This document shows, piece after piece, positions 13,500 through 26,817 of a stretch of DNA of 64,000 nt. Source of the DNA: a virus (lineage: Duplodnaviria; Caudoviricetes). The stretch is taken from positions 64,001 through 128,000 of the IMG/VR virus record IMGVR_UViG_3300028603_000002; one strand, written 5' to 3'. Position 1 is the stretch's first letter, and every line of letters starts with the position of its first letter. The notes below the pieces were generated by a model. It made no database searches, was not told the DNA's origin, and saw only the letters and a program-made list of their open reading frames with translations. The translations under genes and the position numbers were made by a program.

Positions 13500-14264
13500 A
13501 TGGAATTAGTGAAAAGTTATGATGAATTGTTGAAAGTTGTCCCACAATTGGACAATAAACAACGCCATCCAGATGCCTCCAAACACTACGTGGCAGTAGA
13601 TACTGCAAAAGTAGTTAAAGGATTTATGAATTTAGGATGGCAACCACGTCAGGCATTTTCTAAAAAAGGTAGTTGGGGTCATCATATGATTAAATTAGAG
13701 CATGAAAGTGATCTGAGAGTTGGAGATGATATAATACAAATCGTCATTCAGAATTCATATGATAGAACCAGCAAATTCCAACTTAATGCTGGAGTTTTTC
13801 GAGTTGTTTGTCAAAATGGAATGATTATACCTAAGGAAAACTTAGGAATGGCATCCATCGAACAACGGCATATGGGCTTTGATCCTCAAGAATTTTATAC
13901 AATGGTAAATGAGGTGATGGAAAGTGTATCTAAAGTAGGGAATGTAATCGGATCAATGAAAGCAAAGATCTTATCAACTCCCGAAAAGATAGATTTTGCA
14001 CGAAAAACATCCTTATTGCGAGTTGATGAAAGTGTAGCTGAAACAATCAATTTTGAAGAAATATTGGAACCATCAAGGCCAGAAGATCAATATGATGATT
14101 TGTGGACTGTTTCAAATTTACTTCAAGAGAAGATGATTCGAGGTGGTGTAACGTATGTGACTGATAAAGATCGTTCACGCAGGATGAGAAAATTATCCAA
14201 CTACAAAAGAGAAGTTGAAATTACTGAAGGCATTATGAAACATGCTTTCGAATATTTGAATTAA
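13500..14264 (+). CDS. DUF932/DUF945 family protein
   Basis: NSYDRTSKFQLNAGVFRVVCQNGM and RH motifs. Confidence 0.8.
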   Translation: MELVKSYDELLKVVPQLDNKQRHPDASKHYVAVDTAKVVKGFMNLGWQPRQAFSKKGSWGHHMIKLEHESDLRVGDDIIQIVIQNSYDRTSKFQLNAGVFRVVCQNGMIIPKENLGMASIEQRHMGFDPQEFYTMVNEVMESVSKVGNVIGSMKAKILSTPEKIDFARKTSLLRVDESVAETINFEEILEPSRPEDQYDDLWTVSNLLQEKMIRGGVTYVTDKDRSRRMRKLSNYKREVEITEGIMKHAFEYLN

Positions 14265-14286
14265 TTGTCCATTTAATAACTAGAGT

Positions 14287-14318
14287 AAGGGGACAATTGA
14301 AAAATTGTCCCTTTTTTT
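14287..14318 (+). terminator. intrinsic terminator
   Basis: GGGGACAATT-GAAA-AATTGTCCCT hairpin followed by a T-run. Confidence 0.85.
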
Positions 14319-14329
14319 ATTGAATACGC

Positions 14330-14785
14330 ATGAGAATATTATACAAAAAGGTAAATGGTGATGTTGTAGATATTGTAAAGTACACCAATGAAGTACTTGC
14401 TAAATATCCACATTGTGAAGTAAGGATTGGGACTGATAGTCAAGTACACAGAAAAAGTGTTCGTTATGTTACTGTAATAGCATATAGATGGGGAACAAGG
14501 GGCGTGCACTTAATATACAAGAGTGTAACAGTACCAAAGAAAGGTTTGGATCGTTATACCCGTTTATATAATGAGGCCGTTAGATCAATTGAATTAGCTG
14601 AATATTTAAAAAAAAATGGTATTCTTGTTTCTGGGATTGATATGGACTATAACGGTCAGAAGAAAACACCCTCAACACCAGTTATAGCACCTACGAAGGG
14701 ATGGGCAGAAGGATTAGGTTATACAGTTTACATTAAACCAGATGCACAATTAGCTACTAAAGCAGCAGACGAATTATGTAGATAA
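14330..14785 (+). CDS. RNase H-like YkuK family protein
   Basis: IGTDSQ, RLYNE..RS, IDMDYN and IKPDAQLATKAAD motifs. Confidence 0.8.
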   Translation: MRILYKKVNGDVVDIVKYTNEVLAKYPHCEVRIGTDSQVHRKSVRYVTVIAYRWGTRGVHLIYKSVTVPKKGLDRYTRLYNEAVRSIELAEYLKKNGILVSGIDMDYNGQKKTPSTPVIAPTKGWAEGLGYTVYIKPDAQLATKAADELCR

Positions 14786-14803
14786 ACCTATATTTATATA
14801 AGT

Positions 14804-15517
14804 ATGGAAAAACTGAGAATATTATATAAAGATGCTTTTTATCAAAATCTCCTTAAAGAAGGAGTATATGATCCCGCAATATTCAAGGCAATATTTATGG
14901 CAGGGGGGCCTGGTTCGGGAAAATCATATATTGCAAAAAAAGTAACAGGGGGATTAGGGTACAAATTCATAAGTTCAGATATTGCTTTTGAACATTTCTT
15001 AAATAAATTAAAGATGTCTCATAAATTGGATAAATTATCTGATGAGGAATTCAATAAAGTAATACGAACTAGAAATAGGGCAAAGGAACTAACTAAGAAA
15101 ATAAAAGCTTCTCATGAAGGTGGGAGATTAGGATTGATATTTGATGGTACAGGGTATGACTATTTAAAGATAAAAAAATTGAGGGATGAAATTACTAAGT
15201 ACGGATATGATACATATATGATTTTTGTGAATACTTCTTTGGATGTAGCATTAGAAAGAAATCAAAAGAGATCAAGAACTGTACCTGAAGACGTAGTGAT
15301 AGGAAAATGGAAAGCAGTGCAAGAAAATATTGGTAAATTTCAAAATTTATTTGGATCTAATTTTACTGTTATTGATAACAATACACCAGATGTTGAAGAA
15401 ACACTTGATTTAGAACGAAAGCAAGTCATGAAATTTACTAAAGCACCCATAAAAAATCCAATTGCGAAACAGTGGATTGATAGAGAATTAGAATTAAAAA
15501 ATAGATTAAGTAAATAA
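14804..15517 (+). CDS. P-loop kinase (AAA_33/zeta-like)
   Basis: AGGPGSGKS, LIFDGTG and FVNTSLDVALERN..R.R motifs. Confidence 0.8.
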   Translation: MEKLRILYKDAFYQNLLKEGVYDPAIFKAIFMAGGPGSGKSYIAKKVTGGLGYKFISSDIAFEHFLNKLKMSHKLDKLSDEEFNKVIRTRNRAKELTKKIKASHEGGRLGLIFDGTGYDYLKIKKLRDEITKYGYDTYMIFVNTSLDVALERNQKRSRTVPEDVVIGKWKAVQENIGKFQNLFGSNFTVIDNNTPDVEETLDLERKQVMKFTKAPIKNPIAKQWIDRELELKNRLSK

Positions 15518-15649
15518 AAGACATATTTTTTAAAAATATTACTATATTTATTAGTAGAATGAGAAGTAAATATCATATAGATAGTTTGTTTAATATTACA
15601 TGGGTACTGTCTATGTAATAAGGGAGGAATAAGAATCTGACATAGATTT

Positions 15650-15688
15650 AGCCCCTTCCAAAGCAGTTTGAGAGGGGCTTTTTATTTT
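15650..15688 (+). terminator. intrinsic terminator
   Basis: AGCCCCT...AGGGGCT stem followed by a T-run. Confidence 0.75.
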
Positions 15689-15718
15689 GGTGTTGATATT
15701 GTTTAAAGGGAGACAACA

Positions 15719-16084
15719 ATGAAAAAAATACTAACAATTGTCGAACCAGCATTATATTGTAACAATATAGAATCAATATTAACATTAAGTAGAAAGTATA
15801 AAAATGATATTGATATATGGGTAATAACAAATTTGTGCGATGCACATAGCATAAGGATGTTAGAAAAGAAAAGAATCAACTCTTCAAATTTGTATTATGC
15901 CCAAAATAAGCAGGATAAAATACAATTCTGTAAAGAGACTAGTTGTTATCATATAGATGATGACATTAATGATGTTGAAATAATTAAATACGAAGCCAAG
16001 ATTCCAGTTAAATTAATATTTGATAGGAGAATAATTACGGACTATCGCATTTTTTTAGAAAAAAGATTAAAAAAGATTTTGTAG
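15719..16084 (+). CDS. HAD-like hypothetical protein
   Basis: VIT, K and HIDDD motifs. GGGGAG RBS. Confidence 0.5.
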   Translation: MKKILTIVEPALYCNNIESILTLSRKYKNDIDIWVITNLCDAHSIRMLEKKRINSSNLYYAQNKQDKIQFCKETSCYHIDDDINDVEIIKYEAKIPVKLIFDRRIITDYRIFLEKRLKKIL

Positions 16085-16255
16085 ATATAAAAATGTTATT
16101 TATATTTATGATGTTGAAAAGATATTTGGGTGTTATTATTCTAACACGAAGTTATTTGAAACGCTGGCAGACATAGACGCATACATCTAACCAAGTAATA
16201 CGATCTGGTATGGTAATTTTAGAATTACGAGTCAGGTGTGTATGAGTCATTTTTA

Positions 16256-16329
16256 GTAGGGGTAGCTTAATTGGCGAGAGCACTTGTTTTGGGAACAAGT
16301 AGATGTGGATTCGACTTCCACTCCCTGCA
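16256..16329 (+). tRNA. tRNA-Pro(TGG)
   Basis: Cloverleaf. Anticodon arm CTTGT-TTTGGGA-ACAAG. Confidence 0.85.
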
Positions 16330-16332
16330 CAA

Positions 16333-16409
16333 AAAATAGAAACATAATATATGTTACTTACATCAATTTCATAGACTGACTTAATTACATATATTGATTA
16401 TTCTATTTT
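16333..16409 (+). ncRNA. ACAT/TACT/GATTA stem motif, copy A
   Basis: AAAATAGAA-ACAT-AATATATGT-TACT...ACATATATT-GATTA-TTCTATTTT. Confidence 0.7.
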
Positions 16410-16420
16410 ATTTTAAGAAC

Positions 16421-16536
16421 AAAAAGAAAACATTATTGATGTTACTCTGGATTAATCTCCCGAATGGGGGATTGATAGGTTCGATTCCTATCAGGACCGA
16501 ATGGTCTTGTTATACATCAATTGATTATTTCTTTTT
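16421..16536 (+). ncRNA. stem motif copy B carrying a tRNA T-arm (Y-RNA/YrlA-like)
   Basis: Same motif, with the loop holding ATAGG-TTCGATT-CCTAT and two extra hairpins. Confidence 0.7.
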
Positions 16537-16547
16537 TTACAATACAC

Positions 16548-16623
16548 AGCGCGGTGAGTCTGGAGAGGCACCAGGCGCGGTCTCATAAGCCGAACGACGT
16601 GGGTTCGAATCCCACCTGCGCTC
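16548..16623 (+). tRNA. tRNA-Met(CAT), extended D stem
   Basis: Acceptor AGCGCGG/CTGCGCT, loop CTCATAA, T arm GTGGG-TTCGAAT-CCCAC. Confidence 0.75.
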
Positions 16624-16670
16624 CTAAAATTTAATTAACTTTTATATTTATTGTTAAAAGGAGTTTCAAT

Positions 16671-16895
16671 ATGGATAAGTACATTTGTACAAAAGAATGG
16701 CCAAGACATGCTAAAGGAGATGTCATTGAGGCATGGGAATATAATAGAATACCACGGGAGATTCAACAAGAACATTTTAAGAAAGTAGAAAAGGAAACTA
16801 AAAAAGAAATTAGGCCTACTGACAAAGGAAAAGGAAAAGTATCATTCACTAAAAAAATTGAAAATGAAGAACCACTGGGTAGTAACAATATCTGA
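16671..16895 (+). CDS. hypothetical protein
   Basis: 74-aa ORF with an AGGAG RBS. Confidence 0.6.
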   Translation: MDKYICTKEWPRHAKGDVIEAWEYNRIPREIQQEHFKKVEKETKKEIRPTDKGKGKVSFTKKIENEEPLGSNNI

Positions 16896-17034
16896 TGATG
16901 GTAATGTTAAGAAAAAAAGAAAGTTTAAGGGACCTGCAGAAGTAGTAGCAGGACAAGAATATCATAAGCAAATTAAGAAAATGGTAAACATTACTAAACA
17001 TCGTATTAGTAAGAAATACGGATTATAATTATAC

Positions 17035-17406
17035 GGGCCATACAGGAATCGACAGGTATAAGAAGTATATTAGGCGATCCGCACAATGATATTAACGTGC
17101 GTCAAAAAGGTATATCAACACAGAGTTGACAAAAATGTCAGTTTAGATTTGGCACTAGAAGCATTGAAAAATGATACTAGCGGCGGCCGTGCTATTAACA
17201 TGGTTACCAAGCCAGCAGCTTTCGCGGTAGCTGCGTAAACCAAACCGTTCTTCCTGAGCTTTCTACCATGTGTAGGTAGCCAACAATGGTTTTTCTTATT
17301 GTACCCATTAAACAATAAGATGGTGGAGTTGCAGGGTTAGTTTATGATCGTTATTCCTAGTATATGTATTATGTTCTGGATGTGGGTTCGAATCCCACAT
17401 GGTCCA
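17035..17406 (+). ncRNA. ssrA: tmRNA
   Basis: 5' GGGCCATACAGGAATCGAC. 3' T arm plus ATGGTCC-A gives G3:U70 and A73. Internal frame ends ...PAAFAVAA-stop at 17238. Confidence 0.9.
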
Positions 17407-17480
17407 CTTCAAACATGGAATGGGTCACCTCTAGAGCAGGTGTTGCAATGGGGGTGGCTTTATTAAAAACAAGGAAAGAT

Positions 17481-17990
17481 ATGAAAAAATTAATATTGTT
17501 TATTCTGTTATTAACTGTTACTACATTAAATAGTCAGGCCATAGAACAAAATAAAGTTGATAAAAACATTAAATTGCTTTCCATTCCTATAAATACAGGT
17601 ACTGAACTGACACCAGCTGTGATGGATGTAATAGATCGTGTAGCAATTGAAAATAAGATAAGAAAAGAAGTACAAGCTGAAATGGCAGCTGCTTGTGATG
17701 AAAGGCAATTAGCTATTGAAAAGATGAAGTTGGAAATTGAATGTAGAGGTATTACACCAGGTGAATTAGGAATTGCTCCAGATACTATTTGTGTTGGTTT
17801 AGGATTGTATTCCGAATGGATTGTGCGAGCTATATCTAATACAAGAATTGGTGGTACTTATACCGCATTGTTAGATCCTGCTACATCACTAAGCACACCA
17901 GGCCCATCTGGCACTCTAAGATCACGTACAATTGTAGGATTTGATAAATTTATCCCAGTAGGGACAGTGATTATAATGGCAGAAAAGTAA
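17481..17990 (+). CDS. secreted hypothetical protein
   Basis: MKKLILFILLLTV signal peptide with an AAGGA RBS. The longer ORF call overlaps the tmRNA. Confidence 0.65.
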   Translation: MKKLILFILLLTVTTLNSQAIEQNKVDKNIKLLSIPINTGTELTPAVMDVIDRVAIENKIRKEVQAEMAAACDERQLAIEKMKLEIECRGITPGELGIAPDTICVGLGLYSEWIVRAISNTRIGGTYTALLDPATSLSTPGPSGTLRSRTIVGFDKFIPVGTVIIMAEK

Positions 17991-18192
17991 TTATATTTTT
18001 AGTATGATAGTTTTAAATAAAATATATTATTTAGATCTAGGAAGTTCAAGTCCGGTGGAAGTAAAAACTATATGATTTTTACAAACTGGTGTATTATGTA
18101 AATATCTAAACTCTGCACCTGGTAGGGAAGAGGTTATTGATTACGATTTATTTGAAGAAAGTATTATAAAAGTTCATTAAAACATTTTTAAG

Positions 18193-18363
18193 ATGCCTAG
18201 AAATAACGATCCATTTAAGCCATGGAATGATGTAATGAAAGATACACCATTTGCTCCACATAACGGGCCTGAAGCAGATAATCCATTTAAACCATGGAAT
18301 GATCCTGCAGGAGATACTTCAAGATTAACAGATGAAGAAAAACGTTATTACGGTATAAGATAA
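18193..18363 (+). CDS. 56-aa protein with (D/N/T)PFxPxN repeats
   Basis: MPRNNDPFKPWNDVMKDTPFAPHNGPEADNPFKPWND... Below the ORF-track cutoff. Confidence 0.6.
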   Translation: MPRNNDPFKPWNDVMKDTPFAPHNGPEADNPFKPWNDPAGDTSRLTDEEKRYYGIR

Positions 18364-18450
18364 CCCCCAGTGGCGAAATAGGCAGTACGCGTAAGACTTA
18401 AAATCTTATTCCTAGAAATGGGAGTGCAGGTTCGATTCCTGCCTGGGGGA
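18364..18450 (+). tRNA. tRNA-Leu(TAA)
   Basis: TAAGA-CTTAAAA-TCTTA, long variable arm. Confidence 0.9.
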
Positions 18451-18531
18451 CTAAATGACTATGTCACGGGTGTTATAAACATAGTCATCAGTTGGAATGT
18501 AGTGAATCACACCCTAACATTCCAACGAACC

Positions 18532-18605
18532 GCCTTCATAGCTCAATAGTGTAGAGTAACTGGCTCTTAACCAGTGGGTTCCGAGTTCGAGTCTCGGTGG
18601 GGGCA
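18532..18605 (+). tRNA. tRNA-Lys(CTT)
   Basis: ACTGG-CTCTTAA-CCAGT. Confidence 0.9.
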
Positions 18606-18664
18606 CTATAAACAGGCTTGGTAAAGCCTCTTGTAATTATTACAACGTAACCAAGTAATTGAAT

Positions 18665-18749
18665 GGTAGGTTGCCAGAGTGGTTAACGGAGCAGTTTGCT
18701 AAACTGTCATCTCGAAAGGGGTGCACTGGTTCGAATCCAGTACCTACCG
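18665..18749 (+). tRNA. tRNA-Ser(GCT)
   Basis: GCAGT-TTGCTAA-ACTGT, long variable arm, G73. Confidence 0.9.
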
Positions 18750-18761
18750 CAATTTAAATAT

Positions 18762-18832
18762 TGCCCTGTAGTATAATGGTAGTATATAGGAATTTGGATC
18801 CTATGGTTTCAGTTCGAATCTGAGCAGGGCGT
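18762..18832 (+). tRNA. tRNA-Gln(TTG)
   Basis: TAGGA-ATTTGGA-TCCTA. Confidence 0.85.
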
Positions 18833-18840
18833 CTAATAAA

Positions 18841-18912
18841 GTCCCATAAGCATTGATGGCGATGTATCTGTTTTGTAATCAGAATAAGTCGGTTCGAATC
18901 CGGCATGGGGCT
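18841..18912 (+). tRNA. tRNA-Thr(TGT)
   Basis: Anticodon loop TTTGTAA, acceptor GTCCCAT/ATGGGGC. Confidence 0.85.
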
Positions 18913-19083
18913 CAAATAAAAAAATTTAGGATGAGGATGTGGTGAGTATAAGCTCCTAATGTGTAATAAGGAAGAAGTACAAAGAAAAAGGGATTGTAGT
19001 ATTTGTATGAAACAGCCGACACACATGAGAATCCCTGACGCCATTATGGCTAGACCCGTAACCACATCCTTTATTTTAATTAT

Positions 19084-19180
19084 GGAAGAGTAACGCCGTC
19101 AGACTGTAAATCTGATCCGCTTTAACAAATTGGCGTAGTTGGACTTCGCGGTAAGTCGGGTTCGAGTCCCACCTCTTCCA
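19084..19180 (+). tRNA. tRNA-Tyr(GTA)-like, no D arm, giant variable arm
   Basis: GGAAGAG/CTCTTCC-A acceptor and TCAGA-CTGTAAA-TCTGA. Only 8 nt between the acceptor and anticodon stems. Confidence 0.7.
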
Positions 19181-19189
19181 CTTATATAT

Positions 19190-19262
19190 GGCAACTGAGC
19201 AAGTGAGGTCATTGTGCTGGTCTGAAAAACCAGAGAATCCGGATCGTTACCGGGAGTTGCCG
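19190..19262 (+). tRNA. tRNA-Phe(GAA)
   Basis: CTGGT-CTGAAAA-ACCAG. Atypical T loop ATCGTTA. Confidence 0.8.
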
Positions 19263-19275
19263 CAAAATTAAATAC

Positions 19276-19347
19276 GCCTCCATAGTGTAATTGATAGCAT
19301 ATGAGCTTCCAAACCTCAAGGTCCGAGTTTGAATCTTGGTGGGGGTG
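19276..19347 (+). tRNA. tRNA-Trp(CCA)
   Basis: TGAG(C)-TTCCAAA-(C)CTCA, G73. Confidence 0.75.
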
Positions 19348-19370
19348 CTAATATAAGTTTTATTTTTTAC

Positions 19371-19444
19371 GGTGTTGCAGCATATTGGTGCATGTTACCC
19401 GCCTGTCACGCGGGGGATTGTGGATTCGAATTCCATCAACACCG
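19371..19444 (+). tRNA. tRNA-Asp(GTC)
   Basis: CCCGC-CTGTCAC-GCGGG, G73. Confidence 0.9.
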
Positions 19445-19450
19445 CGATCA

Positions 19451-19524
19451 GCGGGTTACGCATAAGTGATGGTGCACCTGCCTTCCAAGCAGGAAAAGAG
19501 CCAGTTTGATCCTGGCAACCCGCA
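19451..19524 (+). tRNA. tRNA-Gly(TCC)
   Basis: CCTGC-CTTCCAA-GCAGG. Confidence 0.85.
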
Positions 19525-19528
19525 CAAA

Positions 19529-19602
19529 AAATAGAAACATAACACATGTTACTTTATGAATCGTTTATTTCAACCAAACTACATGTGTTGATTATTCTAT
19601 TT
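19529..19602 (+). ncRNA. stem motif copy C
   Basis: AAATAGAA-ACAT-AACACATGT-TACT...ACATGTGTT-GATTA-TTCTATTT. Confidence 0.7.
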
Positions 19603-19611
19603 ATTTTTAAT

Positions 19612-19684
19612 GGGGGTATAGTTTAACTGGCTAAAATCAGTGATTTGCACTCACTAGATCCGATTTCGATCATCGGTACCTCCA
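19612..19684 (+). tRNA. tRNA-Ala(TGC)
   Basis: AGTGA-TTTGCAC-TCACT, G3:U70. Confidence 0.85.
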
Positions 19685-19692
19685 CAAACTTT

Positions 19693-19835
19693 TGCGTGGT
19701 AGTTGAATTGGAATATTATTCGTCCGACGGTAGTATTTTGAAATGAATGACGATTCATTAAGTTTAATACCTTAGAATAATAACAACACTCCCGGCTAGA
19801 GGGAGAGATTGCAGGTTCGACTCCTGTCCACGCAA
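19693..19835 (+). tRNA. tRNA-like RNA with CTA anticodon and 69-nt D-loop insertion
   Basis: TGCGTGG/CCACGCA acceptor, D stem GTTG/CAAC, CTCCC-GGCTAGA-GGGAG, canonical T arm. Confidence 0.65.
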
Positions 19836-19858
19836 CTATTAACAGGTAACTACTAGAT

Positions 19859-19930
19859 GGCCCGTTCATCTAATGGCTAGGATACGCGACTTTCTATCGC
19901 ACAATGAGGGTTCGATTCCCTCACGGGCTG
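19859..19930 (+). tRNA. tRNA-Glu(TTC)
   Basis: GGCCCGT acceptor, GCGA-CTTTCTA-TCGC. Confidence 0.8.
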
Positions 19931-19940
19931 CAATAAAAAA

Positions 19941-20014
19941 GAACAGGTACTCAATATTGGCTTTGAGATAGGTCTGCAAAACCTAGAATGTGGGTTCGAT
20001 TCCCACCTTGTTCT
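19941..20014 (+). tRNA. tRNA-Cys(GCA)
   Basis: TAGGT-CTGCAAA-ACCTA, U73. Confidence 0.9.
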
Positions 20015-20021
20015 CAAATTC

Positions 20022-20095
20022 GCCTCTGATGCTCGTATGGTAGAGCACCGGACTTTTAATCCGGGTATAGCTCAGTTCGAATCTGGCCAGGGGCA
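20022..20095 (+). tRNA. tRNA-Lys(TTT)
   Basis: CCGGA-CTTTTAA-TCCGG. Confidence 0.85.
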
Positions 20096-20111
20096 CTAAA
20101 AACATTTTAAT

Positions 20112-20477
20112 ATGAAAACAGGATTTTATAATCTATCAACACTTTCTTTAGAAGAACTAAAGTCTTTTTATAAAGATACAATTCCTCTTTCATATTGTAT
20201 CATGTGTGAATCAAAATACACCACATATAAAAATAAATGGAGATCTGTAGATAATAAATACAATATCAATGATTATATTGAGAGAGTAAATCATGCTAAC
20301 CACAATGTTTGTATAGATAGATCAATTCAAGGAGCTAACCTCCCAGGAACTGAAAGAGGAGAGATTGGATTCAAATTACATGAAACATATGATAGAGACT
20401 GGCATCAAATAACATTCTATACTACATTAGAAAACTTTTATAAATTAGTTGACAAATTTAAACTAAAAGAATTATGA
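20112..20477 (+). CDS. hypothetical protein
   Basis: 121-aa ORF coupled to the next gene (ATGA overlap). Confidence 0.6.
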   Translation: MKTGFYNLSTLSLEELKSFYKDTIPLSYCIMCESKYTTYKNKWRSVDNKYNINDYIERVNHANHNVCIDRSIQGANLPGTERGEIGFKLHETYDRDWHQITFYTTLENFYKLVDKFKLKEL

Positions 20478-21169
20478 GATGTTTAGCAGTTGGTGATATA
20501 CACGGCAATTATGATGCATTAATGGATGTATTAGAAAAATGTAATTATGATCCTAATAATGATATGTTAATTGCAATGGGCGATTATACTGATAGAGGAC
20601 CTAAAAACATTGCAGTAGTAGAATTTTTATTATCAATTGGTCATTTTATTGGATTACTTGGAAACCATGATGTTTGGGTAAGAGAATATCTAAATGGAAA
20701 TTATAGTGGAATAGATTGGATATTGAATGGTGGAAAAGTAACATATGATGAATATGAAAAAGCAAAGAAACTTGGTTCATTTGATATTGGTCTACATAAA
20801 GAATTCTTTAATAGTTTACATGAATATTATGTCTTAGAATTGAATGGTAAGAAGTATGGATTCGTCCATGGTGGATTTTATTCGTGGGATGGATTAGGAC
20901 ATGATGATACAGTAAAATATACTTGGTGCAGAGAGTTGTGGGAAGATGTATTTAATGGGCGGAATGAATCAGTAAAAAATCAGTTATCACATTATGATAC
21001 ATTATTTATAGGACATTGCCCGACAAATTTATATGGTGTTAAACCAGATAAACTTCCAGTTAAATATGCAAATGTTATTAACCTAGACCAAGGTATTGCT
21101 TATGAAAATGGAAGATTAACAATATGTGATATAGAAACTGAACAATGTTGGCAATCCAGTAAAAAGTAA
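20474..21169 (+). CDS. metallophosphoesterase (Ser/Thr protein phosphatase-like)
   Basis: GDIHG, GDYTDRG, GNHD, FVHGG and GHCP motifs. Confidence 0.9.
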   Translation: MRCLAVGDIHGNYDALMDVLEKCNYDPNNDMLIAMGDYTDRGPKNIAVVEFLLSIGHFIGLLGNHDVWVREYLNGNYSGIDWILNGGKVTYDEYEKAKKLGSFDIGLHKEFFNSLHEYYVLELNGKKYGFVHGGFYSWDGLGHDDTVKYTWCRELWEDVFNGRNESVKNQLSHYDTLFIGHCPTNLYGVKPDKLPVKYANVINLDQGIAYENGRLTICDIETEQCWQSSKK

Positions 21170-21173
21170 AGTC

Positions 21174-21452
21174 ATGACTTGGAATTTCAGATTAATGCTT
21201 ACAAAACACCAACATCCAACAGGTGATCCTGATAATTCTTATACTATAGGAATACATGAAGTGTATTATGATGAAGATGGGTCACCTAACGGATACCATG
21301 AAAATCCTAGAGAGATGTCGGCAGAAGATATTAAAGGTATGGAATGGTTACTCGATGCTCTTCATGGTGCATTTGATAAACCAGTATTGTGGAATAGTGA
21401 TAGATTTCCAGAAGAAGTATCTAAAGAAGATTTAAAAGCCCTTGTAGCTTAG
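21174..21452 (+). CDS. conserved phage hypothetical protein
   Basis: WNFR...IHEVYYDEDG motif. Confidence 0.6.
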   Translation: MTWNFRLMLTKHQHPTGDPDNSYTIGIHEVYYDEDGSPNGYHENPREMSAEDIKGMEWLLDALHGAFDKPVLWNSDRFPEEVSKEDLKALVA

Positions 21453-21513
21453 CCTGGTTTAAAGCGCGTATTTTACATGTACGAGATCATTGGTTCGAAT
21501 CCAGTTGAGGGCA
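21438..21513 (+). tRNA. tRNA-Val(TAC)
   Basis: CGTAT-TTTACAT-GTACG. Overlaps the upstream stop codon. Confidence 0.85.
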
Positions 21514-21603
21514 CTAGAAAAATATATGAAAAATATTTCAAGAAATATTTGGTTAATTGGAAAACATTACTTATCTTTATTATGAAATAAAAGAGTATAA
21601 GTT

Positions 21604-22050
21604 ATGAAAACCGAACAATTAAACGTTCTTCAATTAGTTAGAAAATTCGATAATGGAGATTTTGACAATCCAAGTTTTGAAACTCAATGTGATGCTGGAT
21701 GGTATGATTGGTTTTGTAAACAGACTAGTTTAGCAGGCAAGACTAGAACATTATATAGAAAGGTTAAACAGTTATTGAAAACGAAGAGAATTCAAGAATT
21801 GAACCTTGAAAAAACATATGTGTGGTTCAAAAATAATTGTCCAATGAATGGTAGTTTATATGATGATATCCGATTTGCGGATATTGAGACAGGGCAGGTT
21901 TTATTTACTATAGTACCCAAATGCGGACATAGAATAAGTGAAGGGGAAAGGGCACAAATACATGGCAACCGTTTAAACCCAGATGATGAGTTTATAATGG
22001 ATGTGTACAAAGGTGATTGGAAAGGAGTATTAGAATTTCTTAATAAATAG
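21604..22050 (+). CDS. conserved phage hypothetical protein
   Basis: GWYDWFC and YVWFKNNCP...LYDD motifs. Own promoter at 21548. Confidence 0.65.
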   Translation: MKTEQLNVLQLVRKFDNGDFDNPSFETQCDAGWYDWFCKQTSLAGKTRTLYRKVKQLLKTKRIQELNLEKTYVWFKNNCPMNGSLYDDIRFADIETGQVLFTIVPKCGHRISEGERAQIHGNRLNPDDEFIMDVYKGDWKGVLEFLNK

Positions 22051-22110
22051 TTAACCCATATCAAATCTTCCATCAGGTAACAGCGTATAAGTGGAGACTA
22101 AGGGTTATTA

Positions 22111-22192
22111 AGGCGTATACCAGCCCATCCTGATAAGATGGAGAACTGTAGCAGGTAAGTTGAAAACATGGGTTCGAATCCCATTACGCCTA
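22111..22192 (+). tRNA. tRNA-Ile(GAT)-like, no D arm, long variable arm
   Basis: AGGCGTA/TACGCCT-A acceptor and CCATC-CTGATAA-GATGG. Only 7 nt in place of the D arm. Confidence 0.7.
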
Positions 22193-22395
22193 CAAAAAAT
22201 GTTCATTGAAAGATATAACTGGAACTTCCAGATGAAAGTGAGTGTCGAAAGCTCATTAGATAACGGTACAAGCCCGACCCAATTGGATGCTATCATTGTA
22301 ATCTGATCAGAAGTTATGACCCTCTGCCAATGCATTGTAAAACTTGAACGCAGTTAACAGTAGAGCGAGACGGGTACTCTACACAGTTATTTTTT

Positions 22396-22470
22396 GGACC
22401 TATAGTTCAGTTGGTTTAGAATTACTCGCTCATAACGAGGAGGTCGCAGGTTCGAGTCCTGCTAGGTCCA
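22396..22470 (+). tRNA. tRNA(CAT), Ile2 or Met
   Basis: GGACCTA/TAGGTCC-A acceptor, loop CTCATAA. Confidence 0.85.
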
Positions 22471-22472
22471 CT

Positions 22473-22559
22473 GTGTACGAATCGGATATGGTTTGCCGAG
22501 TCAGGTTGTGACCCTGGTGTGATGAAAGTCACGTGCGAGTTCGAATCTCGTCGTACACC
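22473..22559 (+). tRNA. tRNA-His(GTG) with long variable arm
   Basis: TCAGG-TTGTGAC-CCTGG, C73, extra arm GTGA-TGAAAG-TCAC. Confidence 0.8.
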
Positions 22560-22564
22560 TAATT

Positions 22565-22640
22565 GCCTGGAAAGCTTAAGTCTGGTATAAGCGGCGGTTT
22601 GTTAAACCGAGGATAGTGGGTTCGAATCCTTCTCTAGGCG
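22565..22640 (+). tRNA. tRNA-Asn(GTT)
   Basis: CGGT-TTGTTAA-ACCG, G73. Confidence 0.8.
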
Positions 22641-22734
22641 CAATTTCAAAGTTTAATTATTATGTTAATTCAATTATTATTAATAATTTTATTGTTTATT
22701 GGAGTCTTATACTTCAATACTAGAAAATAAGTAG

Positions 22735-23319
22735 ATGAGAATAATATTCGATATTCATGGAAAGATGCATCGGTATAAACAATTAACAACTGATGTCAAA
22801 AAGAGTGTACAAATAGGTGATTTAGGATTTAAAAGTCAACATGAATGGTTTTTAGCTAATATGGATTGTGATAATCATAAAGTATTATTTGGTAACCATG
22901 ATTATTATCCATATATAAATCTAAAACATTCGTTGGGTGATTTTGCTTTCTATGAAGGAATATTCTTTATACGTGGTGCTGCTTCAATTGATAAAGCATA
23001 TAGAGTTGCTTATAGAGATTGGTTCCCAGAAGAAGAATTGAATTTTAGACAAATGACTGAATGTTTCAATCTTTATAGTGAAATTAAACCAAAGATTGTA
23101 GTTAGTCATGATTGCCCACAAGCTGTATGCAAAGAATTATTCGGGCATCCAGGTTCTCACACAAGAAATTTTTTACAATTATTATTTGAAGAACATCAAC
23201 CTGATATGTGGTTATTTGGCCACCACCATCAAAATGTAGAATTGGTTCTTGATAATACTTATTTTAAATGTGGTGAAGAATTAGAATATTATGATATATC
23301 AGAAAATTTATTAAAATGA
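22735..23319 (+). CDS. metallophosphoesterase
   Basis: DIHG, GDLG, GNHD, GAASID, SHDCP and FGHHH motifs. Confidence 0.85.
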   Translation: MRIIFDIHGKMHRYKQLTTDVKKSVQIGDLGFKSQHEWFLANMDCDNHKVLFGNHDYYPYINLKHSLGDFAFYEGIFFIRGAASIDKAYRVAYRDWFPEEELNFRQMTECFNLYSEIKPKIVVSHDCPQAVCKELFGHPGSHTRNFLQLLFEEHQPDMWLFGHHHQNVELVLDNTYFKCGEELEYYDISENLLK

Positions 23320-23322
23320 AAA

Positions 23323-23396
23323 GGCGCTATGGCGGAATTGGCATACGCACATGTTTTAGGAACATGGTCTTGTGGGTTCGAGTCCCACTGGCGCTA
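23323..23396 (+). tRNA. tRNA-Leu(TAG), short variable loop
   Basis: CATGT-TTTAGGA-ACATG. Confidence 0.85.
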
Positions 23397-23401
23397 CTAA
23401 T

Positions 23402-23473
23402 AGCTTCATCGTTCAATTGGAAGGATACATGGCTACGAACCATGAGATGGGGGTTCGAGTCCTCTTGAGGCTA
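23402..23473 (+). tRNA. tRNA-Arg(ACG)
   Basis: CATGG-CTACGAA-CCATG. Confidence 0.9.
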
Positions 23474-23490
23474 CTAATAAAGGATATAAT

Positions 23491-24063
23491 ATGATAGAAA
23501 AAGGATACCAAATAAATGTTAATCAAACTTTAACAGTTATTAATGATGCAATTGAAAATAAAGGATTTCATCTATTAGAATCAGTTTTAGATCATATGAG
23601 GTTTGATCCATTATGTCCTAAATTAGATGGTTGGTTAAGAACATTAACTAAAGATGAGTTAATGAAATTGTTTTCAATGTATATTTCTTTCAGACATAGA
23701 AATGAGAAAAACAAATCAGGAATATTGGAAGATTTTATTGCTGAGTTTGAATTGATTATGGTATCTAAATTTATTGATTTTGATTTTAGATTAAAATTGA
23801 CAAATATTCCGGAATCAAAAACATATATTGATTTTATCAATGAGTATGAAGAACGTATACGAATACTAAGTCTAAAAGAATGTGCTGCAATAGTTGATGA
23901 TATTGAAAGATCACTAGTGTCAATTATACTATTAAAAGAAGATTGTATTAAATTGATTCAATCGGAAGGCGCAATAGATAAATGGAAGTATACAAGAACA
24001 GATAAATATAAAGAAGCGAGAGATATTATTTTAAAGTATACAAAATTAGCTCCCGTCATCTAA
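23491..24063 (+). CDS. hypothetical protein
   Basis: 190-aa ORF with an AAGGA RBS. The 3' end overlaps tRNA-Arg. Confidence 0.6.
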   Translation: MIEKGYQINVNQTLTVINDAIENKGFHLLESVLDHMRFDPLCPKLDGWLRTLTKDELMKLFSMYISFRHRNEKNKSGILEDFIAEFELIMVSKFIDFDFRLKLTNIPESKTYIDFINEYEERIRILSLKECAAIVDDIERSLVSIILLKEDCIKLIQSEGAIDKWKYTRTDKYKEARDIILKYTKLAPVI

Positions 24064-24120
24064 ATGGAAAGATATGGGTCTTCTAAACCTAACATACCAG
24101 TTCGAGTCTGGTCGGGAGTA
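24049..24120 (+). tRNA. tRNA-Arg(TCT)
   Basis: GGGT-CTTCTAA-ACCT. Confidence 0.85.
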
Positions 24121-24125
24121 CAATC

Positions 24126-24215
24126 GGTAGGTGATATTTTTAATGGAAAAATCCCCGTCTTGAAAACGGGTGGATCTCTGAGAAAGGGGTTGGGGTTCGA
24201 GTCCTCCGCCTACCG
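24126..24215 (+). tRNA. tRNA-Ser(TGA)
   Basis: CCCGT-CTTGAAA-ACGGG, long variable arm. Confidence 0.85.
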
Positions 24216-24235
24216 CAAATAAATCTTTAACACAA

Positions 24236-24523: not shown

Positions 24524-24647
24524 CAAGGGGTAGTGTAATTGGCAGCACAGGTAAATTACATTACACGATTATTATTTAAAAATAAACATGTTTAGTGTTA
24601 CTCGCTTTCTGGTAGCCCTAGTCCTGGTTCGAATCCAGGCCCCTTGC
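24524..24647 (+). tRNA. tRNA-Gln(CTG)-like with 52-nt insertion in the anticodon stem (motif copy D)
   Basis: Removing 24552-24603 restores GGGCT-TTCTGGT-AGCCC. D arm, T arm and CAAGGGG/CCCCTTG acceptor intact. Confidence 0.7.
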
Positions 24648-24651
24648 CTAA

Positions 24652-24712
24652 ATTAAACATCTAGCAACTTACTCTTAAATTGACAATTAAATTAGTTGTT
24701 AGGATTATTAAT
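24652..24712 (+). ncRNA. stem motif copy E, in the 5' leader of the 694-aa gene
   Basis: ATTAA-ACAT-CTAGCAACT-TACT...AGTTGTTAG-GATTA-TTAAT. Confidence 0.7.
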
Positions 24713-24732
24713 CTTTCTAAATTTTTAAAGTT

Positions 24733-26817
24733 ATGGAAAAACATGAATTGAAGCACAAAATTACTTTCCTAAAAGTTAAAGGGCTTCATGTTAAACAAGG
24801 TTCTGATTCAGGTAATGATAGCCTAGTACATCAAATCAACCATGAGTTGATGGGTATAGGTTATATACTTGAAAAAGACCTATTTGATAGGTTATGTACT
24901 TTAAAAGAAGGGCAGTTAAATAATGTCTATCATGGAATTGTATCCGCTATAAAAGATGTAGTTGGTGATTCTGATGGATATGAGCCTATCTACAGAAACT
25001 TTCCTCAATCAGTATTAAGCAAGTCTCATTTTGAATTATTCGTCAATGCTATAATTCATTATTGGTCACTTGGTACTTGGAGACCCGAGGATGAAGAATT
25101 TCTTAATAGAGAAGTTAAGTTAGAAAAGGTTGAATTTAAACCTGTTAGATTGCTTATCGATGAACAATTCCACAAAGTATTTGAAAACATTGCTTATAGT
25201 GGTGAATCAATAAGTGCTTTTGATAAGGAAGCTATTGATTTTTATATTGATAATTATGATGCTGTGAATATTGAATTGAGTAAAATCAGGTTCAAAGAAA
25301 CTGCATCATATATTGGTAAGAGATTGATGGATAGTAAAATTCAAATGTTACCAACTAAATCTGCTACTACTGTATTGCGTATAATGAGTGCATATTCTGG
25401 AGGTGATGAGGGATTGAAGGAAAATACTAAATTCAAAAATCCATCAACCAGACAGTGTAATATATTACGTAGGACATTGGAGCAATGTTTTGATTTAGAA
25501 GATTCATTCAAAACATATCGTGAACCATGGTTAAGGTTGTTATTTTACTTGAATCCATTAGCTTCGAATAATGTTAAGAAGTACCCAAACCTTGCAGCAT
25601 ATACTAACCTATTAAGGAATGATCCTGGGTTGTTGGAAACATTCAATGCTAAAGTTGAAAAAGCATTGCAACATAAAAGTCCTGGTATATTTGAATTGTT
25701 GAAACACCGTCCAGGAGTATTTACTAGAAGATTAGATCATTTAGTACGGGTATTTGGTGAAGTTGCAATTGATAATTACCTTCAATTATCAAAATTATCA
25801 TTTGCTAATTTAATTGATGCATATAACCATTTCAGAAGTAGAGACAAAGTACAAAATTCCCGTTCTTCCGTAGTTGCATCAAGTAAAAGAAGCAATGCAC
25901 ATTCATATAAAGCATTAGATGCATTAGATTCAAAACTAGTAGTATCTATTACATCAAAGATCCTTAATAGGATGGTTGATATGAAGGTACAAGGTTTTGA
26001 GGATAAGAAAGTATTCATTGATCGTCAATGGTATTTCAAATCAATTCCAACTAATAATAGAGCGGCTGATTTATCATTAACTCAAAATGCATCATTTGAT
26101 TGTGAGTTATATGATGATAAGAAGAAATGTATCAGGATGTATGTACATTGGCCAGGTAGGTTTGATATTGATTTATCAGGTTGGTTGGTAAATGAAGACA
26201 GAACAGAAGTTCAGAAAATTGGTTGGAATGCTAGATATCATGACAGTGATGGTGCAGTTGTTTATTCAGGTGATAATACAGGTTATAGTGCTAAGAATGC
26301 TGAATACTTAGATATCAATATTCCGAAATTAAAGAAGAAGAGTATTGAGTGGGTAATAACTGAGGCTAGAGTATATCGAGGACCCAAGTTCTCAAAATGG
26401 TCAGGTCAAGGTGTCCATACAGGATTCATGGGTATTGATCATCCTGAAGCAAATAATAGATGGCAACCAAAAACATTGGAAAATGCCATTAAGGTAACAG
26501 TTGATACAGGTAATGTTTATTTAATTGCATTCCATATACCGACTATGAATGTTGTTTATTTAAACTTATCCAGTCCAGATAATAATAGTGTTTCAAATGC
26601 TGATACAGTATTGAAATTCCTAGATATGGTTGAACAAAATGCTGCTTTAGATTCCGGAGCTGTCGAATTTAGAATGTTGGAACTAGGTAGAAAGATAACT
26701 ATTGGTCACGCTATACAGATGAGAATGCCAGCATTATCTGATACGTTAGAAGGAGCGGATGTTGTATTTGATGAAAATACACAAGTTGAAGAACTTCTAA
26801 CAATAGTTAATGACTAA
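24733..26817 (+). CDS. large helical-repeat protein with C-terminal TerD-like domain (candidate Ro/TROVE-like)
   Basis: YEPIYRNFPQSV...NAIIHYW and RPGVFTRRLDHL in the N-terminal part. TerD-like DIDLSG, YSGD and AEYLDI motifs. Confidence 0.65.
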   Translation: MEKHELKHKITFLKVKGLHVKQGSDSGNDSLVHQINHELMGIGYILEKDLFDRLCTLKEGQLNNVYHGIVSAIKDVVGDSDGYEPIYRNFPQSVLSKSHFELFVNAIIHYWSLGTWRPEDEEFLNREVKLEKVEFKPVRLLIDEQFHKVFENIAYSGESISAFDKEAIDFYIDNYDAVNIELSKIRFKETASYIGKRLMDSKIQMLPTKSATTVLRIMSAYSGGDEGLKENTKFKNPSTRQCNILRRTLEQCFDLEDSFKTYREPWLRLLFYLNPLASNNVKKYPNLAAYTNLLRNDPGLLETFNAKVEKALQHKSPGIFELLKHRPGVFTRRLDHLVRVFGEVAIDNYLQLSKLSFANLIDAYNHFRSRDKVQNSRSSVVASSKRSNAHSYKALDALDSKLVVSITSKILNRMVDMKVQGFEDKKVFIDRQWYFKSIPTNNRAADLSLTQNASFDCELYDDKKKCIRMYVHWPGRFDIDLSGWLVNEDRTEVQKIGWNARYHDSDGAVVYSGDNTGYSAKNAEYLDINIPKLKKKSIEWVITEARVYRGPKFSKWSGQGVHTGFMGIDHPEANNRWQPKTLENAIKVTVDTGNVYLIAFHIPTMNVVYLNLSSPDNNSVSNADTVLKFLDMVEQNAALDSGAVEFRMLELGRKITIGHAIQMRMPALSDTLEGADVVFDENTQVEELLTIVND

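What the first reader, a model, noticed from the sequence alone, without database searches (positions are those of the whole stretch)
16421..16536. YrlA-like RNA: motif stem closing a T arm and an acceptor-like hairpin
Seen: within motif copy B lie the hairpin AATCTCC-CGAATG-GGGGATT, a canonical T arm ATAGG-TTCGATT-CCTAT and an adjacent AGGACC-GAAT-GGTCTT hairpin. There is no anticodon arm and no free acceptor end. Established: YrlA Y RNAs have a T arm stacked on a loop-closed acceptor-like stem. Inference: a tRNA-elbow mimic tethered to the motif-binding protein.
Basis: partly seen in the sequence, partly recalled or inferred. Interest (0 to 1): 0.7.

Follow-up and report, generated by a model that had tools for sequence, protein, structure and literature searches.

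The report
Phage handle RNA displaying tRNA elbow
This 116-base stretch of a large phage encodes a small folded RNA whose conserved stem "handle" recurs in front of one uncharacterised protein gene in many distant phages and whose tip imitates the top half of a tRNA, so it looks like an undescribed cousin of the Ro60/Y-RNA particles.

Summary
Window 16421-16536 (+) folds as described (-37.5 kcal/mol, z = -4.9). It has a closing two-part stem, a capped hairpin, a canonical T arm and, with no spacer, a 7-bp acceptor-like stem capped by four bases.

It is not a decayed tRNA. A covariance model built only from seven elements of other contigs recovers exactly 16421-16536 (44.3 bits, E 6e-6), and all 78 matches lie on the gene strand. 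The shared "handle" is NCAU, a 9-bp stem, UACU, the cargo, the 9-bp partner, GAUUN, closed by an outer stem. It covaries strongly: 93% paired against 55% in shuffles.

At least one handle lies within 1.5 kb upstream of a homolog of the window's 694-aa protein (24733-26817) in 36 of 42 loci. That protein has a helical N-terminal domain and a TerD domain.

Eight other loci carry the same kind of cargo as copy B: a GG strand, a T arm and a capped acceptor-like stem. Their proteins are 44-55% identical.

It is not a YrlA member. The Rfam model does not match, there is no D arm, no Rsr-site motif and no TROVE gene. The protein resembles Ro60 only weakly by fold.

Best reading: a Y-RNA-like adaptor or decoy RNA.

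Earlier agents of this scan reached the same "handle RNA plus TerD protein" reading on other genomes.

The parts
16421..16429 (+). handle, outer stem (stem1) 5' strand; pairs with 16528-16536
   Evidence: stem1 pairing was not required by my scanner, yet it is 92-99% paired at positions 1-4 in 78 elements against 41-65% in the control
16430..16433 (+). conserved unpaired ACAU (NCAU in the family)
   Evidence: in 78 scanner-selected elements the free first position is A in 54 and C in 24; the CAU itself was a scanner criterion; the model built from seven other-contig elements recovers the site
16434..16442 (+). handle, inner 9-bp stem (stem2) 5' strand; pairs with 16514-16522
   Evidence: helix 2 is 96% paired and all 9 pairs show changes on both sides
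16443..16446 (+). unpaired UACU at the cargo junction, present in every element found
   Evidence: UACU was a scanner criterion; all 78 matches of the independent model carry it
16447..16453 (+). single strand holding GG (UGGAU here, UGGUU in most relatives); inferred stand-in for the D loop
   Evidence: a GG lies 0-5 nt after UACU in 8 of 9 elements of this cargo class and after the capped stem in the ninth
16454..16473 (+). optional capped hairpin in the variable-arm position
   Evidence: present in 3 of 9 elements of this cargo class (window, L006, L020)
16475..16491 (+). T arm: 5-bp stem and 7-base T loop
   Evidence: stem pairs 1-3 covary and pairs 4-5 are always G-C
16492..16509 (+). acceptor-like 7-bp stem capped by a 4-base loop (16499-16502), abutting the T stem
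   Evidence: all seven positions are paired in all seven parsed elements, with several pair types including G-U on the + strand
16510..16513 (+). short A/U tail joining the cargo to stem2'
   Evidence: tails are 3-5 nt in the class
16514..16522 (+). handle, stem2 3' strand
16523..16527 (+). conserved unpaired GAUUA (GAUUN in the family)
   Evidence: G, A and the fourth base were scanner criteria; the free third base is U in 74 of 78
16528..16536 (+). handle, stem1 3' strand
16333..16409 (+). handle RNA copy A (28-nt cargo), directly after tRNA-Pro
   Evidence: 46.9 bits
19528..19603 (+). handle RNA copy C (27-nt cargo)
   Evidence: 53.1 bits; compensatory changes relative to copy A
24648..24716 (+). 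handle RNA copy D, directly upstream of the protein gene
   Evidence: 52.4 bits
24552..24603 (+). handle closed by a loop (permuted form) inside the anticodon stem of tRNA-Gln(CUG), 24525-24647
24733..26817 (+). 694-aa protein with a helical N-terminal domain and a TerD domain; inferred partner of the handle

Best explanation
Window 16421-16536 encodes a small structured RNA, probably released from the polycistronic tRNA transcript. It belongs to an undescribed family of modular 'handle' RNAs. The handle is a rod with two conserved unpaired patches, NCAU opposite GAUUN and UACU at the cargo junction, held exactly one 9-bp helix apart. I infer that the handle is the binding site of the phage's 694-aa helical/TerD protein. 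The cargo of this copy imitates the top half of a tRNA: a T arm stacked on a capped 7-bp acceptor-like stem, with a GG-containing strand placed to fill the D-loop role at the elbow. I infer that it works like a Y RNA: the handle holds the protein while the cargo engages a factor that recognises the tRNA elbow or acceptor-T stack. That would either bring the factor to the protein or soak it up as a decoy. Shown: the fold, the family, the covariation and the gene linkage. Inferred: protein binding, the elbow contact and the adaptor or decoy role.
For: The fold is far more stable than shuffles. Model R1, built from seven elements of other contigs, finds this element at its exact ends (44.3 bits, E 5.8e-6). 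It gives 78 matches in 440 kb, all on the gene strand. In two complete phage genomes of 172 and 345 kb it finds only the copies in the tRNA island or in front of the gene. Covariation is strong: 93.1% of cells pair against 55.1% in shuffles, score 0.928 against 0.204, 0 of 500 shuffles reach it, slid controls give 37-49%, and all 16 pairs change on both sides. Stem1, which my scanner did not require, pairs independently. In 36 of 42 loci at least one copy lies within 1.5 kb upstream of the protein homolog, and no copy lies on the opposite strand. The scanner found no handle in 70 of 71 loci drawn by a cargo-like pattern; the one that had handles is the contig of L011. The same cargo design occurs in nine loci whose proteins are 44-55% identical, with covarying T and acceptor-like stems and unrelated caps. 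Other cargoes in the family are whole tRNA-like bodies in T arm, closed acceptor, D arm order, which is the YrlA layout (PMC4201824). For the protein, the TerD fold is clear (Z 13.0 and 12.1). After TerD, the best matches are Ro60 proteins over 225-289 residues: 2nvo Z 8.5 and 7.4, phage phiLo Ro60 Z 8.0 and 6.3, 1yvp Z 5.0 and 5.5. All other chains align 161 residues or fewer, apart from two outliers with rmsd above 8 A. A crAss-like phage TROVE protein appears in BFVD with probability 0.90 but E 0.22.
Against: There is no direct evidence of expression or binding. No sequence method links the protein to TROVE. Foldseek against the PDB finds no Ro60. The Z scores lie in the range the tool warns is common for helical repeats. 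In this phage the element lies 8.2 kb from the gene. The same handle also sits inside the anticodon stems of otherwise normal tRNAs, which hints at a processing role. The alignment used for the covariation counts was fitted to the model's structure.
Confidence: 0.5

Rival explanations
1. The handle is a protein-dependent splice or permutation signal, the functional counterpart of the archaeal/eukaryal bulge-helix-bulge. Handles inside tRNAs would be cut out and the exons joined. Handles flanking permuted tRNA bodies would be cut and the ends joined into a circle. Copy B would then yield a small circular or reopened tRNA top half.
For: Thirteen loop-closed handles sit in the 5' strand of the anticodon stem of tRNAs of many identities. 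For the seven read by eye, removing the handle restores a 5-bp stem; in six of these the loop is a canonical 7 bases. The permuted tRNA-like cargo of L004:9775-9903 regains a 5-bp anticodon stem and a 7-base loop if the junctions are removed. UACU always lies at the 3' junction. A kinase and two phosphoesterases of the RNA end-healing kind lie in the tRNA island.
Against: The insertion point varies from 26|27 to 29|30. The junctions vary from 4 to 8 nt on the 5' side and 4 to 6 nt on the 3' side, so the cuts would not be at a fixed distance from the motif. Several cargoes cannot become tRNAs: copy B, L017:37-155 and L027:9868-9983 have acceptor stems capped by 3-6 nt and no anticodon loop. Most cargoes are only 14-30 nt. 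RtcB and Rnl2-type ligases were not found; the Rnl1 search was uninformative because its control rang nowhere. The linked protein shows no nuclease or ligase fold.
Confidence: 0.2
2. The handles are processing or stability elements of the long tRNA transcript, for example sites for a host double-strand or single-strand RNase. The tRNA-like tip of copy B would then be incidental.
For: All five copies in this phage lie between tRNA genes. Copy A starts 3 nt after tRNA-Pro and copy B ends 11 nt before tRNA-Met. The rod is about two helical turns long.
Against: Host RNase sites would not need unpaired patches kept identical across phages whose proteins are only 40-55% identical. They would also not track one phage protein gene. 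The tip design is conserved in nine loci.
Confidence: 0.1
3. The handles are operators through which the protein controls its own messenger. Copy B would be a displaced copy without a role of its own.
For: Two to six copies lie directly in front of the gene in most loci, and the last copy often ends 10-40 nt before the start codon.
Against: Copies A, B and C lie 5-8 kb from the gene in this phage. Elaborate conserved cargoes are not needed for an operator. This reading also assumes that the protein binds the handle, so it overlaps with the best explanation.
Confidence: 0.08
4. Copy B is a decaying permuted tRNA, or the scar of a mobile palindromic element, with no function.
For: It lacks D and anticodon arms. 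Copies A and C are 85-92% alike in their flanks, as recent duplicates would be.
Against: Every helix is intact. The same reduced design recurs in lineages whose proteins are 44-55% identical, with compensatory changes. There is no near copy of its T arm and acceptor strand among the phage's tRNAs. All copies share one strand and show G-U pairs.
Confidence: 0.05

Closest known systems
YrlA / YrlB bacterial and phage Y RNAs with Rsr (Ro60); Rfam RF02553; Chen et al. 2014, PMC4201824
   Same: Both are modular small RNAs. The 5' and 3' ends pair into a protein-binding stem, and the tip is a tRNA-like domain in permuted order (optional variable hairpin, T arm, loop-closed acceptor-like stem). Several paralogous RNAs are encoded upstream of the partner gene on the same strand.
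   Different: The stem motif is different: NCAU/GAUUN plus UACU instead of GNCGAAN0-1G. Copy B has no D arm, only a GG strand. There is no match to RF02553. The partner gene has no TROVE signature and carries a TerD domain where Ro60 has vWA. The same handle is also grafted into real tRNAs.
Thermus phage phiLo Ro60 with Yrl1 and Yrl2 (PMC12135203; PDB 9l5y)
   Same: A phage-encoded ring-shaped protein with two small RNAs encoded just upstream. It is proposed to capture a host RNA enzyme (PNPase). 9l5y is among the best structural matches of the window's protein (Z 8.0 over 276 residues).
   Different: phiLo Ro60 is a recognisable TROVE plus vWA protein, and its RNAs carry the CGAA motif. Here sequence methods see neither.
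Circularly permuted tRNA genes and bulge-helix-bulge tRNA introns of archaea and some algae (from my own knowledge; not tested against a model)
   Same: One RNA signal occurs both inside tRNAs and flanking tRNA bodies whose 3' half precedes the 5' half.
   Different: There is no bulge-helix-bulge geometry. The host is a bacteriophage. Copy B and several relatives cannot mature into a decoding tRNA. No splicing endonuclease or ligase was found.
tRNA (Rfam RF00005)
   Same: A canonical T arm with a G-C closing pair and a 12-bp acceptor-T stack.
   Different: There is no D arm, no anticodon arm and no free 5' or 3' acceptor ends. Neither the Rfam tRNA model nor ARAGORN calls it.

Membership tests
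YrlA (Rfam RF02553) | Score at or above the family's gathering cut-off (69 bits) | tested here: not met
   no match at 16421-16536 (genome 80421-80536); the best match elsewhere scores 14.7 bits; no match at E up to 10.
YrlA (Chen et al. 2014) | GNCGAAN0-1G Rsr-site motif in the 5' strand of the closing stem | tested here: not met
   sequence of 16421-16446; motif definition from PMC4201824
YrlA (Chen et al. 2014) | T arm followed by a loop-closed acceptor-like stem | tested here: met
YrlA (Chen et al. 2014) | D arm after the acceptor-like stem | tested here: not met
   only 4 nt (16510-16513) lie between the capped stem and the handle
YrlA (Chen et al. 2014) | Within 4 kb of a TROVE (Ro60) gene and on the same strand | tested here: not met
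   no PF05731 match in the complete genome at E up to 1, nor in the related 345-kb phage
Handle RNA family linked to the TerD protein (defined here) | NCAU, 9-bp stem, UACU, cargo, 9-bp partner, GAUUN, outer stem; match to model R1 | tested here: met
   (44.3 bits, E 5.8e-6; the model was built without window sequences)
Handle RNA family linked to the TerD protein (defined here) | Same strand and same tRNA island as a homolog of the 694-aa protein | tested here: met
   the gene is at 24733-26817, 8.2 kb downstream
tRNA (RF00005) | Cloverleaf with four arms and free acceptor ends | tested here: not met
Ro60 / TROVE (for the linked protein) | TROVE sequence signature | tested here: not met
Ro60 / TROVE (for the linked protein) | HEAT-repeat ring fold closed by a C-terminal domain | tested here: inconclusive
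   VIA-align: 2nvo Z 8.5 over 289 residues and 7.4 over 250; 9l5y Z 8.0 over 276; 1yvp Z 5.0-5.5. Foldseek against the PDB finds none. BFVD TROVE protein: probability 0.90, E 0.22.
TerD (PF02342) (for the linked protein) | TerD beta-sandwich domain | tested here: met
   Foldseek 2kxt E 7.8e-5; VIA-align Z 13.0 and 12.1; Pfam TerD in 20 of 35 homologs
Bulge-helix-bulge permuted tRNA gene | Two 3-nt bulges separated by a 4-bp helix at the joined termini, and a complete tRNA body | tested here: not met
   by inspection: the loops are 4 and 5 nt across one helix and 9 bp from the junction, and the body lacks D and anticodon arms

The most novel reading that the evidence does not exclude
The handle is a new protein-read RNA signal used by large phages to splice tRNAs interrupted in the anticodon stem and to circularise permuted tRNA bodies. 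That would be a bacterial-virus counterpart of the bulge-helix-bulge system, and copy B would give a small circular tRNA top half.
Probability: 0.17. Interest if true: 0.95.

Novelty: new variant of a known kind. Interest (0 to 1): 0.75.

Why it matters
If the reading holds, Ro60/Y-RNA-type particles have a large unrecognised sister family. The N-terminal domain of the partner protein has 1,964 cluster representatives at 50% identity with E up to 0.001. These come mostly from big phages whose tRNA islands hold the gene. The family uses one fixed handle to display interchangeable tRNA pieces: elbows, whole tRNA-like bodies, anticodon-loop look-alikes and even real tRNAs. That points to a phage strategy aimed at host enzymes or defence nucleases that recognise tRNA shape. 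It also gives a compact, well-defined RNA-protein pair for structural work. Copy B is a minimal natural tRNA-elbow mimic without a D stem.

Tried and rejected
- **Nearby sequence.** Megablast of 14000-20000 against INPHARED phages found nothing.
- **Exact motif scans.** Scans of viral contigs for this phage's own handle found nothing, as did a scan for handle plus cargo. A looser cargo pattern gave 71 loci, of which only the contig already known as L011 had handles.
- **Relatives by single protein.** The search for related loci with the single protein found none; the alignment was needed.
- **Alignment of the cargo class.** MAFFT alignments of this class (A3, A6) put the capped stems out of register, so I counted those pairs with a script that parses each element.
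- **Promoters and terminators.** Scans around the element gave nothing above chance.
- **Protein look-alikes.** The Atlas look-alike and shape searches gave only unnamed or TerD-labelled clusters and one RING-domain family that shares the N-terminal domain.
- **Literature.** Burroughs and Aravind 2016 could not be read. Searches for a TerD/Ro60-like protein with tRNA-like RNAs in phages found no description.
- **Kink-turn, loop E, tetraloop receptor.** I considered these for the ACAU/GAUUA loop and dropped them because the required G-A pairs or consensus letters are absent (inspection only).

Full report
**Setting.** The window is bases 64001-128000 of a complete 171,908-bp phage record with direct terminal repeats, about 31% G+C. 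Window 16256-24216 is a tRNA island with 22 tRNA genes and a tmRNA. The finding lies between tRNA-Pro (16256-16330) and tRNA-Met (16548-16624).

**Observation.** From the outside in:
- an outer stem, 16421-29 with 16528-36;
- an internal loop, ACAU (16430-33) opposite GAUUA (16523-27);
- a 9-bp inner stem, 16434-42 with 16514-22;
- unpaired UACU (16443-46);
- a 7-nt strand holding GG (16447-53);
- a capped hairpin (16454-73);
- a T arm (16475-91);
- with no spacer, a 7-bp stem capped by four bases (16492-16509);
- four bases back to the inner stem.

The predicted fold has -37.5 kcal/mol against -22.7 for shuffles (z = -4.9). No tRNA finder and no Rfam family, even at E up to 10, claims it.

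**The motif is a family.** The frame recurs four more times in the window:
- 16333-16409;
- 19528-19603;
- 24648-24716;
- with the rod closed by a loop, inside the anticodon stem of a tRNA-Gln(CUG) at 24552-24603.

The last copy ends 17 nt before a 694-aa ORF (24733-26817). That protein has hundreds of homologs at 40-52% identity. Fetching DNA around them and scanning with a simple script showed the same frame on the gene strand. At least one copy lies within 1.5 kb upstream of the gene in 36 of 42 loci, usually in 2-6 copies. None lies on the opposite strand. There are 92 distinct elements.

My scanner demanded inner-stem pairing, so I made two independent checks.
- The outer stem, which the scanner did not require, is paired in 92-99% of elements at its first four positions, against 41-65% in a mismatched-partner control. 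All four Watson-Crick pair types occur.
- A covariance model built from seven elements of other contigs gave 78 matches in 440 kb, all on the + strand. They include the finding at exactly 16421-16536 (44.3 bits, E 5.8e-6) and copies A, C and D.

On that model-fitted alignment 93.1% of cells pair against 55.1% in shuffles. The covariation score is 0.928 against 0.204, no shuffle of 500 reaches it, and slid controls give 37-49%. All 16 pairs show changes on both sides. G-U pairs on the + strand are common, so the RNA is the + strand. In two complete phage genomes the model finds only the copies in the tRNA island or in front of the gene.

The invariant features are the CAU of NCAU, the GA-U of GAUUN, UACU and the 9-bp length of the inner stem. 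The outer stem can shrink to nothing when the rod is loop-closed. Two unpaired patches one helical turn apart on a rod of fixed length is what a protein-binding site looks like. That is an inference.

**Copy B's cargo is a conserved class.** Parsing all cargoes and folding two further model hits gave nine elements of one design:
- zero to five bases after UACU;
- a GG strand, UGGUU in most and UGGAU here;
- sometimes a capped hairpin;
- five or six bases;
- a T arm with a UUCRANY loop and two invariant G-C pairs;
- an abutting 7-9-bp stem with an arbitrary stable cap;
- a 3-5-nt tail.

In one of the nine (L012) the GG lies after the capped stem. T-stem pairs 1-3 and all seven acceptor-like pairs covary. 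The proteins of seven of the carrying loci are 44-55% identical to each other, with one pair at 83%. This argues against decay. There is also no near copy of B's T arm among the phage's own tRNAs. The caps differ (a GNRA-type loop, UUCG and others), so the cap is structural. What is displayed is the T loop with its GG partner and the helical stack, that is, a tRNA elbow and top half. That the GG fills the role of D-loop G18-G19 is an inference from tRNA architecture.

**Other cargoes.**
- Four are tRNA-like bodies in the order T arm, closed acceptor, D arm: L004/L005:9775-9903, L017:37-155, L017:184-308 and L027:9868-9983. This is the layout described for YrlA (PMC4201824).
- Thirteen are loop-closed rods inside real tRNAs of many identities. 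Rfam also calls several tRNAs of 119-191 nt in these loci.
- Most are 14-30 nt. Of 62 short cargoes, 17 contain anticodon-arm-like hairpins, against 4.2 in shuffles.

**The protein.**
- Pfam finds nothing in the window's copy, and TerD in 20 of 35 homologs.
- The AlphaFold model (pLDDT 82) has a helical domain at about 1-370 and a beta domain at about 456-613.
- The beta domain is TerD (Foldseek E 8e-5; VIA-align Z 13.0 and 12.1).
- For the rest, the only long matches are Ro60 proteins. D. radiodurans Rsr scores Z 8.5 over 289 residues, Thermus phage phiLo Ro60 Z 8.0 over 276, and Xenopus Ro Z 5.0 over 277.
- With the N-terminal domain folded alone, Rsr ranks first (Z 7.4 over 250), phiLo Ro60 scores 6.3 over 225 and Xenopus Ro 5.5 over 264. 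Apart from two outliers with rmsd above 8 A, other chains align 161 residues or fewer, most of them 110 or fewer.
- A phage TROVE protein appears in BFVD at probability 0.90 but E 0.22.
- Against this, Foldseek versus the PDB, HMM searches and Pfam scans of 47 diverged members show no TROVE link. The tool also warns that such Z scores are common for helical repeats.

I therefore call the Ro60 likeness suggestive and unproven. No canonical TROVE gene exists in this genome or in a related 345-kb phage. The N-terminal domain family is large: 1,964 representatives at E up to 0.001 and 702 at E up to 1e-30.

**Mechanism.** I favour a Y-RNA-like particle (confidence 0.5). The handle binds the helical/TerD protein and the cargo engages a tRNA-shape reader. 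This accounts for the fixed handle, the interchangeable tRNA-like cargoes, the several paralogs per genome and the gene linkage. It parallels phiLo Ro60 with Yrl1 and Yrl2, which capture host PNPase (PMC12135203).

The main rival is a splice or permutation signal (0.2). It explains the handles inside real tRNAs. Against it:
- the cut positions would have to vary;
- several cargoes can never become tRNAs;
- no ligase or nuclease was found (with the Rnl1 control uninformative).

A polynucleotide-kinase-like protein (14804-15517) and two metallophosphoesterases (20474-21169, 22735-23319) do sit in the island. The two models could both be true for different cargoes.

**Comparison and novelty.** The element works like YrlA but is not a member. 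RF02553 does not match, and the Rsr-site motif, the D arm and the TROVE neighbour are all missing. No Rfam family matches the handle, and I found no paper describing it. Earlier follow-up agents of this scan reported the same kind of 'handle RNA plus TerD/Ro60-like protein' on other genomes. Those notes agree with this one but are not independent evidence.

**Verdict.** This is a real, conserved small RNA of an undescribed family and a minimal tRNA-elbow mimic on a protein handle. I class it as a new variant of the Ro60/Y-RNA kind, with interest 0.75.

Noticed in passing
window 24525-24647: tRNA-Gln(CUG) with a 52-nt loop-closed handle between positions 28 and 29 of the anticodon stem; ARAGORN misses it. 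Twelve more such tRNAs (Lys, Gln, Pro, Gly, Arg, Asp, Tyr and others) occur in related loci, with the insertion point varying from 26|27 to 29|30.
   Followed up: partly
L004:9775-9903, L017:184-308, L017:37-155, L027:9868-9983: Handle cargoes that are whole tRNA-like bodies written 3' half first. Two have a 14-15-nt linker between the acceptor strands, and removing the junctions restores a 5-bp anticodon stem in both (a 7-base loop in L004, only 6 in L017). Two have the acceptor capped by 3-6 nt and no anticodon loop.
   Followed up: partly
short cargoes in L003, L005, L009, L016, L025, L040 and others: Of 62 short cargoes, 17 hold a 3-6-bp hairpin with a 7-base loop of anticodon-loop form, against 4.2 in shuffles. 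Six have the loop of tRNA-Lys(UUU). None of this window's copies A, C or D does.
   Followed up: partly
window 14804-15517, 20474-21169, 22735-23319: A polynucleotide-kinase-like P-loop protein and two calcineurin-type phosphoesterases sit inside the tRNA island. This is the RNA end-healing kind of enzyme set, but no RtcB or Rnl2 ligase was found in the genome.
   Followed up: partly
window 19451-19524: A tRNA (Gly, UCC by eye) called by Rfam at 44.7 bits but missed by ARAGORN. Handle copy C follows it directly.
   Followed up: no
window 17035-17409: A phage-encoded tmRNA (Rfam 54.4 bits) lies within the tRNA island.
   Followed up: no
window 16548-16624: The tRNA-Met(CAU) just after the finding scores only 32 bits and has an unusual, enlarged D region.
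   Followed up: no
L006:5160-5230 and L020:9910-9982; L043:874-978; L011:9770-9875: Handle cargoes of 40-75 nt that form long hairpins unlike any tRNA part. The first two are homologous to each other.
   Followed up: no
protein family (Atlas rows): The helical N-terminal domain also occurs in actinobacterial proteins of about 720-780 aa and, fused to a prokaryotic RING domain, in the MXAN_6230/SCO0854 family of about 994 aa.
   Followed up: no
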